Shown here: piece after piece, positions 11,318 through 34,998 of the stretch
Position numbering within the stretch: position 1 is the stretch's first letter
Layout of the letters: each line of letters begins with the position of its first letter
Assembly (NCBI GenBank): GCA_038228865.1
Contig: JBBROX010000001.1
Span: 368,657 to 432,656 of the forward strand
Length of the DNA stretch: 64,000 nt
Source of the DNA: Sphingomonadales bacterium
GTDB lineage: Bacteria > Pseudomonadota > Alphaproteobacteria > Sphingomonadales > Sphingomonadaceae
Reading direction: 5' to 3'
Position numbers and translations under genes: made by a program
The notes under the pieces: generated by a model
Told to the model about the DNA's origin: nothing
Databases searched by the model: none
Seen by the model: the letters and a program-made list of their open reading frames with translations, nothing else

Positions 11318-11533
11318 CTGCCAGATGCGCGCTGGAGAAAAGCGTGCCGCCTGGCGCGGCGCAGGCGCGCGCGCACCCGCGCTTGAAGGCGTCAGACGCC
11401 ACGCAACTCCGCCGGTAGGGAGGGCCAGGTCGAGAACGCGTTGGTCATTTGCCGACCTGCGCAATGTCCCCAAACAACGGCCGGGAAAGTTCGCCGTTTG
11501 GCAAATATCGCTTGCAAGCACGCGGCTGCAACT

Positions 11534-11550
11534 AGTATGATTATGCAAGT
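11534..11550 (+). promoter_or_regulatory. Candidate island operator, copy 1 (AGTATGATTATGCAAGT)
   Basis: 27 bp upstream of the ATG at 11578; overlaps a plausible sigma70 -10 (TATGAT, 11536-41) with TTGCAA at 11512-17. Confidence 0.65.
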
Positions 11551-11577
11551 TTACGGCCATAATAACTTTAGGTGCTC

Positions 11578-25115: not shown

Positions 25116-25160
25116 ATATCCCTCCCCATATAGCGTGACTCGGTCGCTATCCGCCGAATC

Positions 25161-25177
25161 ACTTTTATAATCGTACT
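25161..25177 (-). promoter_or_regulatory. Candidate island operator, copy 2 (minus strand AGTACGATTATAAAAGT)
   Basis: 14/17 match to consensus; 45 bp upstream of the TonB receptor ATG. Confidence 0.6.
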
Positions 25178-25200
25178 TGCACCCCTAACTAAGGCGCACG

Positions 25201-25217
25201 AGTCCGGTTGTGCAAGT
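25201..25217 (+). promoter_or_regulatory. Candidate island operator, copy 3 (AGTCCGGTTGTGCAAGT)
   Basis: 13/17 match; in the divergent TBDR/SDR intergenic region. Confidence 0.45.
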
Positions 25218-25311
25218 GATTTTTGTGCGCAAAAAAACCGCAATGCTCAACCCGAAATGTGAGTGAGACAGAAAACTGCGAGACGGCTGCCGAGATTGCA
25301 TCCAGCTAGAC

Positions 25312-25328
25312 AATATGATTATGCAACT
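25312..25328 (+). promoter_or_regulatory. Candidate island operator, copy 4 (AATATGATTATGCAACT)
   Basis: 15/17 match; 81 bp upstream of the SDR ATG at 25410. Confidence 0.62.
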
Positions 25329-25409
25329 CAGGCGCATTGTCGTTTTTGCGCTGCGGCGTTCAGCAAATCGGCCGCAATTTCAAACGTTTGCTCAGATGTA
25401 GGCGCGGAT

Positions 25410-26375: not shown

Positions 26376-26441
26376 GTAGCCCGGCGATCGCCTTACGCGC
26401 TGCCTGTTGTTGCGACGGAACATTCTTGCCAAGCTATTGTA

Positions 26442-26458
26442 GCTTGTATAATCAAACC
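26442..26458 (-). promoter_or_regulatory. Candidate island operator, copy 5 (minus strand GGTTTGATTATACAAGC)
   Basis: 13/17 match; 43 bp upstream of the thiolase ATG; contains TATAAT on the plus strand. Confidence 0.5.
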
Positions 26459-26501
26459 AACAGGGCGGCGCGTCTCAACAGCGCAGCCTCGGGAGAGCGA
26501 T

Positions 26502-31470: not shown

Positions 31471-32379
31471 CTACGCCACCTCGGCATAGAATGCGGCAAA
31501 GGCTGCCTCGGCACCGGTGTGGGCACGAAGGCGATCCGCAGCGCCGATGTCGATGGCCCGTTCGGCCAGCCAAGCCGGGTCGTTCCCGTGGGGACCAACT
31601 AGCGCGCTTTCGACCGGGACGACGCGCTTGATATACTGACCTGCCGCCACCCACATGCTGCCAGTTTCCGTGCATTCCGGACCCGATAGCCATACCGCCG
31701 CCGCTGCCACTTCGTCCGGGCTCAATTTGGCATCCGGCGCGGCGTTGGTCCGGGTGGTCATGGTTGTCGCGGCATAGGGCATCAGGATGTTCACGAGGAT
31801 GCCATTGCGGCGCTGTTCGTGCGCGAGCGACAGAGCAAAAGCGTTCAGCGCGCCCTTCGACGCCGCATAGGCGGCCCTGCCTCGGACACCATAGACTCCG
31901 GCCGTGGACGAAACGAACAGGATGCGCGGGTTATCGGACTTCATCAGATACGGCAGCGCCGCCCGCACGATCGCGGTATTCGCAAAGAAGTTGATGGCCA
32001 TAACCTGTTCGAGGCCGCCATCGCTCAGCGTGCCCACCTTCTCGGCAGGCCCCTCGATCGCGGCGTTGAGAATCAGCGCATCCAGTCTCCCGAATTTATC
32101 GACTGCGGCATCGACCATCGCCACTGCGGCACCGGGCGCCTGAACGTCGTGATGATCCGCCGCCGCGCTCAATCCTTCCGCTGCCAGGTCCGCGACGATC
32201 TGATCGACGGGGGAGGGACCAGCGCCCGAAAACCTGTTGTTGATCAGGATTGCCGCGCCGTTGCGCGCGCAGGCTGTGGCGAAGGACTTACCCAGCCCTT
32301 TCGAGGCACCCGTTACCAGGATTGATCGGGCGCCGGGAAATGCGGTGTTTTGGTTGGTTGGCATGCCGTGAGTCTGCAT
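31471..32379 (-). CDS. SDR family oxidoreductase (MFE-2 / hydroxyacyl-CoA dehydrogenase-like)
   Basis: TGASKGLG, ILNAA, YAASKG, VNILMPYA.T.MT. Alternative start at 32364. Confidence 0.88.
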   Translation of the reverse strand: MQTHGMPTNQNTAFPGARSILVTGASKGLGKSFATACARNGAAILINNRFSGAGPSPVDQIVADLAAEGLSAAADHHDVQAPGAAVAMVDAAVDKFGRLDALILNAAIEGPAEKVGTLSDGGLEQVMAINFFANTAIVRAALPYLMKSDNPRILFVSSTAGVYGVRGRAAYAASKGALNAFALSLAHEQRRNGILVNILMPYAATTMTTRTNAAPDAKLSPDEVAAAAVWLSGPECTETGSMWVAAGQYIKRVVPVESALVGPHGNDPAWLAERAIDIGAADRLRAHTGAEAAFAAFYAEVA

Positions 32380-32384
32380 CCGGC

Positions 32385-32401
32385 AGTATGATCATGCAAG
32401 C
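32385..32401 (+). promoter_or_regulatory. Candidate island operator, copy 6 (AGTATGATCATGCAAGC)
   Basis: 15/17 match; spans the stop codon of the HxlR gene and lies directly upstream of the SDR. Confidence 0.6.
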
Positions 32402-33369
32402 GACAAGGCATCGTTTGTTGGTACCAATTTCGCGTCGAATCTGGCGCCGTCGATCTGGAGCGTAAACGCGACATCCTTCGCCTGAATCGGTACGCTGCAC
32501 TCGGAACAAACCACCTCCGGTTTCAGTGAATTCCCACACGCAGTGTGCGTCAGAAGGATCGGCGGACCTTCGGGCGAACCATAGTATTTGTCTCCCCATT
32601 CCATCAGCAGCAGCAAGGCCGGGAAATAGGCGGCGCCTTTACGTGTGGTCCGATATTCGAAGCGCGGCGGCGCGGACGCGTATTGGACCTGCTTGACGAC
32701 GCCGAATTCCTCCAGCCAAGCTAGTCGTTCAGCGAGGATATTGGTTGCGATCGCCGTGTCCTGGCGAATCTCCTCAAACCGGTGGATGCCAGTGAAAATC
32801 GACCGCATGATGAGACTGGCCCACCGATCCCCGAGCAGCTGGGCGGCCTGTTCAAAGATCCTGGAGCCATCTTCGGTGCTGGCCCGCTGTTGGCGACGGC
32901 GGCTGTAAATCGGTGCCATCCACCCGACTCCCGGCCCTTCTTTCCAGTCGATCTCGCCTATGTTGAACGACGTTTTGCAGTTGTGACACGACGGAACAGG
33001 CAGGAAGTTGTTCCCGCAAACCTCGTGTTTGAGCTCGACCGAAATATTGCTCGATTGCTCACCCCATTCTATTTCCCACCTAAGGAGAATGAGGGAAACA
33101 GGGTATAAGTCCCGACCCTTCTTGGTCAGAATATATTCGTATCGCGGGGGGCGAGTATTATAGAGTGATTTTTCCACCAGGCCGTTGGCAACGAGTTTTT
33201 TGAGGCGGTCGCTCAGCAACGCTCTCAGCAGCCCTGTGGCACTGAGAAAATCGTCGAACTTGCGGGCACCGAGCAAACTTGCTTCCAAAATGAGCAAGGT
33301 CGACGTGTCGCCGACCACTTCCAGCGCCCGCCAGATCGAACAGGTTTTGATGAGAGTTTTGCCGTGCAT
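32392..33369 (-). CDS. Tandem (double) HxlR/DUF24 winged-helix transcriptional regulator
   Basis: Two HxlR units: CSIWRALEVVGD..LLSDRLKKLV..PPRYEYILTKKG and QLLGDRWASLI..RFEEI..ILAERL..PPRFEYRTTRKG; each followed by HxxCG...CxxC. Confidence 0.9.
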   Translation of the reverse strand: MHGKTLIKTCSIWRALEVVGDTSTLLILEASLLGARKFDDFLSATGLLRALLSDRLKKLVANGLVEKSLYNTRPPRYEYILTKKGRDLYPVSLILLRWEIEWGEQSSNISVELKHEVCGNNFLPVPSCHNCKTSFNIGEIDWKEGPGVGWMAPIYSRRRQQRASTEDGSRIFEQAAQLLGDRWASLIMRSIFTGIHRFEEIRQDTAIATNILAERLAWLEEFGVVKQVQYASAPPRFEYRTTRKGAAYFPALLLLMEWGDKYYGSPEGPPILLTHTACGNSLKPEVVCSECSVPIQAKDVAFTLQIDGARFDAKLVPTNDALSLA

Positions 33370-33453
33370 TGGGGCGGTCTAACGCGGGTAGGGCCGGGGG
33401 TCTACGTGACGCCCTTGCAAGCGGGAAAGACAGGTCCATCCGGCCACGTCGTT

Positions 33454-33470
33454 ACTTGCATAGTCGAACT
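33454..33470 (-). promoter_or_regulatory. Candidate island operator, copy 7 (minus strand AGTTCGACTATGCAAGT)
   Basis: 14/17 match; between the divergent regulator and oxygenase paralog 2. Confidence 0.6.
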
Positions 33471-33516
33471 CGAGCGCGTAGGCGTGCGCGAAATTTGCTG
33501 CACATGGAGAGCGTGC

Positions 33517-34998
33517 GTGGATGTGCAATTTCTCGAGCCGGTAGGATCGTCGCTCAAGCCGACAAATCATCCTTATCTGACCGGACCTTGGACCCCCACT
33601 TTTACCGAAGCGACGGCAATCGATCTCGACGTCATCGAGGGTCGCATTCCCGACGACATCGACGGCATATATGTTCGAAACACCGAGAATCAGGTTCACC
33701 AGCCGCTGGGGAGTTACCACCCGTTCGATGGCGACGGGATGGTGCATGTCATCAGCTTCAAAAATGGGAAGGCCGACTACCGCAATCGGTTCGTGCGGAC
33801 GCGCGGTTTCGCCGCCGAGCAGGAGGCGGGCCAGTCGCTATGGGGCGGACTGATGGATCCTCCGGGCACGTCGCTGCGCCCGGGCTTCGGTGCGCACGGC
33901 GCACTGAAGGATTCCTCGAGTACTGATGTCGTCGTCCATGCTGGCAAGATCGTTTCCACTTTTTACCAGTGCGGCGAAGCCTATCTGCTCGATCCGGAGA
34001 CGGTCGAGCAGGAGGGTATTGCCGGTTGGGGTCCGCTCGACGGGATCTCGGCGCATCCCAAGGTCGACGAATCCACCGGAGAAATGCTGTTCTTCAACTA
34101 CGGCGTCTACGCGCCTTACATGCATTACGGTGTGGTCGACCGGACCGGCAAATGCGTCCATTACGTGCCGATCCCGCTCCCGGGACCGCGCCTGCCGCAC
34201 GACATGGCATTCACGAAAAACTACTCGATCCTGAACGATTTTCCGCTGTTCTGGGATGAGCAACTGCTGAAGCGAAATATTCACGCATCGCGCTTTCACC
34301 GGGACATGAAGTCCCGTTTTGCAATCATTCCCCGCTATGGTCGGACAGAGGACATCCGCTGGTTCGAAGCCGATCCGACCTATGTGCTGCACTGGCAGAA
34401 TGCCTATGAAGAGGGCGACGAAATCGTCCTCGACGGCTATTTCCAGGAAAATCCGACGCCCCGCCCGCTTGAGGACGCGCCCGACGGGATGGGGCATATG
34501 ATGGCCTTTCTCGACGAGCACAGCTTCCGACCGAAGCTTCACCGCTGGCGTTTCAACCTGAAGACGGGCGAGACGACCGAGCATGATCTCGACGACCGCA
34601 TCCTCGAATTCGGCATGTTCAACCAGCGCTATGCCGGCATTCCCTACCGCTATGCCTACAGCACCACGACTAAGCCCGGCTGGTTCCTGTTCAACGGGTT
34701 CGTCAAGCACGACCTGGAGACCGGCGAGTCGTGGGGCGTGAAGCTCCCCGACGGTGTTTTCGCCAGCGAGGCACCGTTCGTGCCCCGGATAAATGCGGCC
34801 GACGAGGATGACGGCTATCTCGTGAGTTTCCTCATCGACGAAAACAGCCAGACCTCAGAATGCATCCTGATCGATTGCAAGGACTTCGCTGCCGGCCCGG
34901 TGGTCCGCATCGCGTTGCCCCACAAGATTTGCAGCGGGACGCATGCCACATGGGCTGATCGGCGATTCATCGCGAACGGTTATCTATCACGTACGTAG
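33517..34998 (+). CDS. Carotenoid oxygenase family dioxygenase, paralog 2
   Basis: GGAGAG RBS before GTG 33517; HPFDGDG; four His motifs: SAHPKVD, LPHDMAFT, VLHWQNAY, GTHATW. Confidence 0.93.
   Translation: MDVQFLEPVGSSLKPTNHPYLTGPWTPTFTEATAIDLDVIEGRIPDDIDGIYVRNTENQVHQPLGSYHPFDGDGMVHVISFKNGKADYRNRFVRTRGFAAEQEAGQSLWGGLMDPPGTSLRPGFGAHGALKDSSSTDVVVHAGKIVSTFYQCGEAYLLDPETVEQEGIAGWGPLDGISAHPKVDESTGEMLFFNYGVYAPYMHYGVVDRTGKCVHYVPIPLPGPRLPHDMAFTKNYSILNDFPLFWDEQLLKRNIHASRFHRDMKSRFAIIPRYGRTEDIRWFEADPTYVLHWQNAYEEGDEIVLDGYFQENPTPRPLEDAPDGMGHMMAFLDEHSFRPKLHRWRFNLKTGETTEHDLDDRILEFGMFNQRYAGIPYRYAYSTTTKPGWFLFNGFVKHDLETGESWGVKLPDGVFASEAPFVPRINAADEDDGYLVSFLIDENSQTSECILIDCKDFAAGPVVRIALPHKICSGTHATWADRRFIANGYLSRT

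What the first reader, a model, noticed from the sequence alone, without database searches (positions are those of the whole stretch)
32392..33369. Single-chain double-HxlR regulator with asymmetric sensor cysteines
Seen: two complete HxlR domains, each ending HxxCG...CxxC. Only domain 1 has the N-terminal Cys (TCSIWRAL). Established: the equivalent Cys in YodB/HypR/QsrR senses quinones and electrophiles. Inference: it senses the electrophilic enal products of dioxygenase cleavage, giving product-induced derepression, and binds the asymmetric 17-mer.
Basis: partly seen in the sequence, partly recalled or inferred. Interest (0 to 1): 0.65.

Follow-up and report, generated by a model that had tools for sequence, protein, structure and literature searches.

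The report
Two-in-one HxlR repressor, one-sided cysteine
This gene encodes an unstudied transcription regulator made of two fused HxlR DNA-binding halves, each with a probable zinc knuckle, that most likely shuts off a neighbouring lipid-cleaving breakdown gene island; its single "sensor-type" cysteine is real and conserved, but related regulators control the same genes without it.

Summary
Observation confirmed. ORF 32392-33369 (-) encodes 325 aa with two HxlR modules, each ending in H-x2-C-G...C-x2-C. Only module 1 has the N-terminal Cys (C10); module 2 has R170 there.

Supported: C10 aligns with the sensor Cys14 of HypR and is the N-cap of helix 1 in the model. It is present in 77/77 orthologues, through both Cys codons. 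The protein very probably binds an asymmetric 21-bp operator, with 7 sites on the island's promoter gaps. The operator contains a -35-like TTGCAT, which argues for repression.

Not supported as the main switch: C10 occurs in only 17 of 118 diverse family representatives, whereas the His-Cys3 motifs are 92-97% conserved. Relatives with Asn at this position lie beside 65-66% identical oxygenase-thiolase pairs with the same operator.

New here: C10 always co-occurs with Arg/Lys189 in helix 2 of module 2. Single-module relatives, including PA1607 and PA1374, carry the same Cys/Arg pair. This clade therefore appears to keep one of two ancestral Cys-Arg sites. What it senses is unknown.

The scan found this regulator family and operator before on other DNA. 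No paper on it was found. I class it as a new variant of a known kind.

The parts
32392..33369 (-). Gene for the single-chain double-HxlR regulator (325 aa, P0001)
33055..33342 (-). Module 1 winged-helix HxlR core (about residues 10-105); its first codon, 33340-33342, encodes C10
32938..33045 (-). Module 1 tail, three beta strands with H115, C118, C128, C131 at hairpin turns (zinc-ribbon-like)
32860..32937 (-). Linker (residues 145-170): conserved GPGVGWMAP..YSRRRQQR, low model confidence; ends at R170, the module-2 equivalent of C10
32575..32859 (-). Module 2 winged-helix HxlR core (about residues 171-265); includes the R189 codon at 32803-32805
32452..32565 (-). Module 2 tail with H275, C278, C288, C291 (zinc-ribbon-like)
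33452..33472 (-). Operator in the regulator/RPE65 divergent gap. On the + strand it reads ACTTGCAT..., placing a -35-like TTGCAT at 33456-33461, 17 bp before TAGGCG (33479-33484)
32383..32403 (+). Operator in front of the downstream SDR gene; its core also encodes the regulator's last two codons and stop (CTT GCA TGA)
26440..26460 (-). Operator upstream of the thiolase / CoA-ligase / DUF1295 / DapB-like operon
25159..25330 (.). Three operators (25159-, 25199+, 25310+) in the gap between the TonB-dependent receptor and SDR genes
11532..11552 (+). Operator in front of the NMO / second RPE65 / CoA-ligase / thiolase / aldehyde dehydrogenase operon
33517..34998 (+). Divergent RPE65-family (carotenoid-cleavage-type) oxygenase; likely start GTG 33517 after GGAGAG at 33506
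31471..32379 (-). Short-chain dehydrogenase directly downstream of the regulator; the most constant neighbour (66 of 83 loci)

Best explanation
The gene encodes a single-chain pseudo-dimer of the HxlR/DUF24 family. Two 'long HxlR plus His-Cys3 zinc-ribbon' modules are joined by a basic linker. It most likely arose from homodimeric single-module proteins of the same build.

Inferred mechanism: the two non-identical recognition helices read the two unlike halves of a 21-bp operator, T-n-AGTAT-nn-TTATG(C/A)AAGT-n-A. That operator lies on every promoter gap of the roughly 24-kb island. The island encodes a TonB-dependent receptor, two RPE65-type oxygenases, an aldehyde dehydrogenase, CoA ligases, thiolases, SDRs and a hydratase.

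Read towards the regulated gene, the operator carries a -35-like TTGCAT, with a TAnnnT signal 17 bp downstream. The protein is therefore most likely a repressor that occludes the promoter and is released by a pathway-derived signal.

The His-Cys3 tails are most likely structural zinc sites.

C10 is a helix N-cap cysteine at the known sensor position. Together with Arg189 of module 2 it looks like the one surviving copy of an ancestral, twofold Cys/Arg site. It may give this clade a thiol input from an oxidant or electrophile.

Sister regulators of orthologous oxygenase-thiolase genes use the same operator without this Cys. The main effector is therefore more probably a non-covalently bound pathway metabolite, such as an acid or acyl-CoA intermediate.
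For: Architecture. The model has pLDDT 85 and pTM 0.83, and each tail is three strands with the H/C ligands at the turns. Each half matches PA1607 (TM 0.77), YodB, HypR, HxlR and QsrR.

Family size: 616 word-index hits; 227 clusters at E<=1e-30; 202 species genomes.

Synteny in 83 loci: SDR 66, DapB-like 64, SnoaL 48, RPE65 37 within 6 kb. A 72-80% identical RPE65 lies 6-14 kb away in the three of five further genomes whose coordinates could be compared.

Operator: 81 exact pattern hits in 59 of 83 loci over 954 kb, against about 0.6 expected from base composition by my arithmetic. Logo. Window: 6 sites against 0.35 expected. Seven of the 16 best genome-wide sites fall in the island. It is the only double-HxlR in the genome, and no other regulator was found among the island ORFs scanned. 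The TTGCAT and the downstream TAnnnT signal (positions 26, 27, 31) are.

C10: aligns to HypR C14 and to the PA1607/PA1374 Cys. Present in 77/77 orthologues, with TGC 57 and TGT 26. C10 with R/K189 in 17 of 17; R189 in 8 of 101 without Cys. Single-module relatives: 60/60 have Cys, Arg at W+6 and the H..C...C..C motif.
Against: No binding, metal or effector data exist. The C10/R189 association is not significant in a phylogenetically controlled test (4-5 supported independent pairs, p about 0.25). HxlR and HypR are activators, so repression rests only on promoter geometry, and no transcription start is known. The -10 beside the RPE65 site (TAGGCG) is weak, and the simple promoter scan found nothing. 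The site at 11532 has the opposite orientation to the rule seen at the other sites.
Confidence: 0.6

Rival explanations
1. First reader's model. C10 is the main switch: alpha,beta-unsaturated aldehydes made by the RPE65 oxygenases alkylate its thiolate, the pseudo-dimer changes shape, and the island is derepressed by its own product.
For: C10 is at the sensor position of HypR, YodB, QsrR and HxlR (PMC3351151; PMC7835342, where HxlR Cys11 reacts with an aldehyde). It is the N-cap of helix 1. It is invariant in 77 orthologues through both codons. It always comes with Arg/Lys189. An aldehyde dehydrogenase and two oxygenases are in the regulon.
Against: C10 is present in only 17 of 118 family representatives; the others carry Ser, Asn, Gly, Thr or Asp, which are ordinary N-cap residues. 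Asn10 regulators with Ile/Ala at 189 sit beside 65-66% identical RPE65 plus thiolase genes with the same operator. Phenylobacterium islands carry an Asn10 paralogue as well. There is no second Cys and no C-x-K motif. No chemistry was tested.
Confidence: 0.17
2. The protein is an activator, as HxlR and HypR are. It recruits RNA polymerase at weak promoters once modified or liganded.
For: Two characterised family members, HxlR and HypR, are activators (PMC7835342, PMC3351151). The promoters here look weak: TAGGCG as -10, and no hit.
Against: The operator itself contains the -35-like hexamer and covers most of the spacer, which is a typical repressor position. Several gaps hold two or three sites. 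Catabolic islands of this kind are usually repressed.
Confidence: 0.13
3. The two His-Cys3 sites are the sensor. Oxidants or electrophiles attack the zinc-bound thiolates, zinc is lost, and DNA binding collapses.
For: The His-Cys3 motifs are the most conserved feature of the whole family, 92-97%. Zinc-thiolate switches are known in other proteins (general knowledge).
Against: The regulon is catabolic, not a stress regulon. PA1607 has the same tail fold without the ligands, which fits a structural role.
Confidence: 0.07

Closest known systems
PA1607 (BosR, PDB 2f2e) and PA1374 (PDB 4gcv) of Pseudomonas aeruginosa: 'long' single-module HxlR proteins
   Same: They are the best sequence and fold matches to each half. 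They share the winged-helix core plus a C-terminal beta extension, the N-terminal Cys, and Arg six residues after the GDxW tryptophan.
   Different: They are homodimers of one module, and the tail lacks the His-Cys3 ligands. Their function is biochemically uncharacterised (PMC9611778). No link to this operator or island is known.
Thiol-switch DUF24/HxlR regulators: HypR and YodB (B. subtilis), QsrR (S. aureus), HxlR (B. subtilis)
   Same: Same Pfam family and fold. C10 aligns with HypR Cys14 at the N-terminus of helix 1. In HypR the helix dipole gives that Cys a pKa of 6.36 (PMC3351151).
   Different: They are about 110-residue homodimers with two equivalent sensor cysteines, no zinc tail, near-palindromic operators and detoxification regulons. 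HypR needs Cys49' and HxlR needs Lys13; neither has an equivalent here (T45/T205 and Ile12).
Single-module 'long HxlR + His-Cys3' proteins of soil metagenomes (unnamed; loci L104-L165)
   Same: Same module: C-S motif at the N-cap, GDRW..LILR with Arg at W+6, and H-x2-C...C-x2-C (60/60).
   Different: They have one module per chain (165-240 aa), so presumably form symmetric homodimers with two Cys/Arg sites. They are uncharacterised.
SarS/SarU/SarY of Staphylococcus aureus (two SarA-like winged-helix modules in one chain; SarS PDB 1p4x)
   Same: Same idea: a winged-helix dimer turned into one chain of two diverged modules (general knowledge). SarS appears only as a weak fold hit.
   Different: There is no meaningful sequence or fold match (TM 0.21-0.27). 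It belongs to a different family (SarA/MarR), has no zinc tails, and controls virulence genes.

Membership tests
HxlR/DUF24 (Pfam PF01638) | Match to the family model above the curated cut-off | tested here: met
   125 bits against 20.8, two separate stretches
HxlR/DUF24 (Pfam PF01638) | Winged helix-turn-helix fold of solved members | tested here: met
   Model pLDDT 85. Foldseek TM 0.74-0.86, normalised to target, to YodB, HypR, HxlR and PA1607
HxlR/DUF24 (Pfam PF01638) | One module per chain, acting as a homodimer | tested here: not met
   Two modules of 27% identity in one 325-aa chain; pTM 0.83 for the whole chain
Thiol-switch DUF24 sensors (HypR, YodB, QsrR, HxlR) | Conserved Cys at the N-terminus of helix 1 | tested here: met
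   C10 aligns to HypR C14 and precedes helix 11-19. This holds for module 1 only; module 2 has R170
Thiol-switch DUF24 sensors (HypR, YodB, QsrR, HxlR) | Partner residue for the switch (second Cys for a disulfide; Lys at +2 for the formaldehyde bridge) | tested here: not met
   The only other Cys are the six in the tails. The +2 residue is Ile12. HypR C49 equivalents are T45/T205 by my position mapping, with residues as (not separately aligned)
Thiol-switch DUF24 sensors (HypR, YodB, QsrR, HxlR) | Sensor Cys kept throughout the functional group | tested here: not met
   77/77 in the orthologous clade, but 17/118 across the double-HxlR family. Asn10 relatives regulate the same gene pair
Thiol-switch DUF24 sensors (HypR, YodB, QsrR, HxlR) | DNA binding changed by oxidants or electrophiles | not testable with these tools
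   Needs EMSA and mass spectrometry
Zinc ribbon / zinc knuckle | Two (C/H)-x2-C knuckles at beta-hairpin turns | tested here: met
   H115/C118 follow strand 109-115 and C128/C131 follow strand 124-128; the second tail is the same. Conservation is 92-97%
Zinc ribbon / zinc knuckle | Bound metal with tetrahedral geometry | not testable with these tools
   No coordinates or metal analysis available
'Long' HxlR (PA1607/PA1374 type) | Beta extension after helix 5, plus N-terminal Cys and Arg at W+6 | tested here: met
   Alignments. The Cys/Arg pair is kept at one of the two interfaces only: C10 with R189, against R170 with E29

The most novel reading that the evidence does not exclude
The C10/R189 pair is a working, one-sided remnant of an ancestral twofold Cys-Arg thiolate switch. 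One covalent hit per molecule, for example an apocarotenoid-type enal made by the island's own oxygenases, would then be enough to release an intrinsically asymmetric single-chain repressor from an asymmetric operator. This would be a natural 'half-of-sites' electrophile sensor controlling a catabolic rather than a stress regulon.
Probability: 0.17. Interest if true: 0.72.

Novelty: new variant of a known kind. Interest (0 to 1): 0.55.

Why it matters
The family is large: more than 200 clusters at 50% identity and 202 species genomes. I found no paper on it. It offers a natural example of a winged-helix dimer fused into one chain whose two halves have diverged along with the two halves of their DNA site. 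It is also the handle on a widespread, uncharacterised regulon built around carotenoid-cleavage-type oxygenases, so finding its effector would probably reveal that pathway's substrate. The stepwise loss of an ancestral Cys/Arg site (two copies, one copy, none) across the family gives a ready-made series for testing what that site does.

Tried and rejected
1. I tested whether the Cys goes with the oxygenase. It does not: Asn10 regulators (L092, L097, L100, L103) also sit beside RPE65 plus thiolase with the same operator.

2. I ran a phylogenetically controlled test of C10 against R189. There were too few independent pairs, giving p about 0.25. I keep the association as suggestive only.

3. An even sample of 400 genomes of the phylum gave only 4 genomes with a full-length double-HxlR, including the window's own. 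It was therefore useless for that comparison.

I repeated it with a narrower alignment.

5. The simple promoter and terminator scan of 32300-33600 found nothing.

6. Literature searches for double or tandem HxlR, or for HxlR with carotenoid oxygenases, found nothing relevant. The PA1607 structure paper (PMC2203316) is not held.

8. Model coordinates are not exposed, so the C10-R189 distance and the His-Cys3 geometry could not be measured.

9. An HxlR-type Cys-Lys formaldehyde bridge is rejected, because the +2 residue is Ile and Lys8 is Arg in most orthologues.

Full report
**1. The observation**

The ORF at 32392-33369 on the minus strand encodes 325 residues. Pfam finds two separate HxlR stretches: E 1.1e-36, 125 bits against a cut-off of 20.8. 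The two halves align with each other at 27% identity over 129 residues, E 2e-21.

Each half ends in H-x2-C-G...C-x2-C. Module 1 has H115, C118, C128 and C131; module 2 has H275, C278, C288 and C291. The chain has seven cysteines. Six are these, and the seventh is C10 in TCSIWRAL.

Alignments of both halves to PA1607 place the PA1607 Cys opposite C10 in module 1 and opposite R170 in module 2.

**2. Structure**

An AlphaFold2 model built on 79 homologues has mean pLDDT 85 and pTM 0.83. Only the linker (about 150-170) and the last 15 residues are poorly defined.

Each module is a winged helix followed by three beta strands. The His/Cys ligands sit just after the first two strands, at the hairpin turns, which is the layout of a zinc ribbon. 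C10 directly precedes helix 11-19, so it is the N-cap.

Foldseek matches each half to PA1607 (TM 0.77, 35% identity), YodB, HypR, HxlR and QsrR. PA1607 has the same tail but without the metal ligands. I could not obtain coordinates, so no distances were measured.

**3. The family**

- The word-index search gave 616 relatives. The 120 listed are 301-331 aa long and at least 57% identical.
- The exhaustive search gave 227 clusters (at 50% identity) with E<=1e-30, mostly 300-340 aa.
- The genome collection gave 202 species. The 80 best loci listed are mainly Sphingomonadales, Caulobacterales, Maricaulales and relatives, plus a few Betaproteobacteria.
- In an even sample of 400 genomes of the phylum, only 4 (including the window's own) carry a full-length copy. 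Single-module relatives are common there.
- No paper on a double HxlR was found.
- Earlier agents of this scan described the same family and operator on other DNA. I used those notes as leads and re-tested them here.

**4. Context and operator**

The gene sits in a roughly 24-kb island. Its contents are:

- an NMO-like gene;
- a second RPE65 oxygenase;
- two CoA ligases and two thiolases;
- an aldehyde dehydrogenase and a beta-lactamase-fold protein;
- several SDRs and two SnoaL/LEH-like proteins;
- a TonB-dependent receptor;
- a DUF1295 protein and a DapB-like oxidoreductase;
- the regulator itself, the divergent RPE65 oxygenase and a MaoC hydratase.

Across 83 related loci, the regulator keeps these neighbours within 6 kb: SDR 66, DapB-like 64, SnoaL 48, RPE65 37. 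In five further genomes a 72-80% identical RPE65 is present. Where the coordinates could be compared (three of them), it lies 6-14 kb from the regulator.

- 81 exact hits in 59 of the 83 loci over 954 kb. Base composition predicts about 0.6 by my arithmetic.
- The logo is T-n-AGTAT-nn-TTATG(C/A)AAGT-n-A.
- In the window there are seven sites, one or more in every promoter gap of the island: 11532, 25159, 25199, 25310, 26440, 32383 and 33452.
- Seven of the 16 best sites in the 3.26-Mb genome lie in the island.
- The genome has only this one double-HxlR.

The two recognition helices differ: T-G-L-L-R-A-L-L-S-D-R-L in module 1 against T-A-I-A-T-N-I-L-A-E-R-L in module 2. That fits an asymmetric site.

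Read in the direction of the regulated gene, the operator begins ACTTGCAT, which contains a -35-like TTGCAT. In 78 aligned sites there is a T-A-n-n-n-T signal exactly 17 bp further on. For the RPE65 gene the layout is:

- -35 at 33456-33461;
- TAGGCG at 33479-33484;
- GGAGAG at 33506;
- GTG start at 33517.

This geometry argues for repression by promoter occlusion.

**5. The cysteine**

Evidence for a function:

- C10 aligns with HypR Cys14. That residue sits at the N-terminus of helix 1, has a pKa of 6.36 and is the redox sensor (PMC3351151).
- The homologous Cys11 of HxlR reacts with formaldehyde (PMC7835342).
- C10 is present in all 77 orthologues, encoded by TGC 57 times and TGT 26 times in the loci. 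The residue, not the codon, is being conserved.

Evidence against it being the family's switch:

- In 118 diverse representatives the His-Cys3 ligands are 92-97% conserved, but position 10 is Cys in only 17. Otherwise it is Ser 49, Asn 13, Gly 10, Thr 7 and Asp 5, all ordinary helix N-cap residues.
- A discriminating test was run on metagenome loci. Regulators with Asn at this position (L092, L097, L100, L103) lie divergently beside an RPE65 oxygenase (65-66% identical in three; 41% in L092) plus the SCP2-type thiolase. The same operator sits in the gap between them.
- Phenylobacterium islands also carry an Asn10 paralogue.

Controlling this oxygenase through this operator therefore does not require the Cys.

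**6. A Cys/Arg pair**

The position most associated with C10 is 189, in helix 2 of module 2. It is Arg in 16 and Lys in 1 of the 17 Cys-bearing representatives, against Arg in 8 of the 101 others.

On a tree, Cys occurs in two clades that both have Arg189. Two losses of Cys in our clade coincide with loss of Arg. Only 4-5 supported independent pairs exist, however, so the test gives p about 0.25.

Position 189 is six residues after the GDxW tryptophan. PA1607 and PA1374 have Cys and this Arg. So do 60 of 60 single-module 'long HxlR + His-Cys3' proteins from metagenomes.

In HypR, helix-2' residues W, W+3 and W+4 of the other subunit line the pocket 8-9 Å from Cys14 (PMC3351151). An Arg at W+6 could therefore plausibly reach the thiol, but I could not check this.

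The pattern across the family is as follows:

| Group | Position 10 | Position 189 | Position 29 | Position 170 |
|---|---|---|---|---|
| Single-module form | Cys (own N-cap) | – | Arg (own W+6) | – |
| Some double forms (P0156, P0163, P0183) | Cys | Arg | Arg | Cys |
| This clade | Cys | Arg | Glu | not Cys |
| Most of the family | Ser | Ala | Arg | variable |

This is consistent with a functional Cys-Arg site retained on one side only. It says nothing about what the site senses.

**7. Verdict**

The protein is a new architectural variant of the HxlR family: single chain, two zinc-ribbon tails, asymmetric operator. It is most likely the repressor of the island.

The specific enal-sensing mechanism is untested, and the Cys-less relatives make it less likely as the main switch. 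A non-covalent pathway metabolite is the more economical effector, with C10 as a possible extra thiol input in this clade.

Noticed in passing
window 32392-32401: The operator core in front of the SDR gene doubles as the regulator's last two codons and stop (CTT GCA TGA = Leu-Ala-stop). Several homologues also end in Leu-Ala or Ala.
   Followed up: partly
window 32860-32937 (residues 145-170): The linker is poorly modelled but strongly conserved (GPGVGWMAP..YSRRRQQR). One Arg column is kept in 109 of 118 family representatives. It is a candidate contact to the A/T-rich centre of the operator or to an effector phosphate.
   Followed up: no
window 32362-32379: With TTGCAT at 32394-32399 (minus strand) as -35, the -10 would be CAGACT at 32371-32376, inside the annotated start of the SDR ORF. 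The real start may be the second Met (ATG 32362-32364), possibly on a leaderless mRNA.
   Followed up: no
own genome G000: C13:1456, C14:91422, C6:4091, C9:41355: High-scoring operator-like sites lie outside the island (scores 31.0, 23.5, 21.1, 18.9). They may be further regulon members.
   Followed up: no
L047:11681-12574, L051, L063:11992-12861: Phenylobacterium islands carry a second double-HxlR paralogue (37% identical, Asn at position 10) a few kb from the C10 orthologue.
   Followed up: partly
L104-L165 (metagenome loci): There is an abundant group of single-module HxlR proteins of 165-240 aa with the same His-Cys3 tail. All have the C-S motif and Arg at W+6. They are the likely ancestral form of the fused regulator and are themselves uncharacterised.
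   Followed up: partly
L014 (Hydrogenophaga MAG), L028 (Acidovorax delafieldii): Betaproteobacterial records carry the same regulator (60-63% identical) with the RPE65-SnoaL-SDR neighbours. This indicates either horizontal transfer or a binning or assembly mix-up.
   Followed up: no
L086-L091, L093: One clade of double-HxlR regulators has neither the operator motif nor any of the island genes nearby, so the family is not tied to a single regulon.
   Followed up: no
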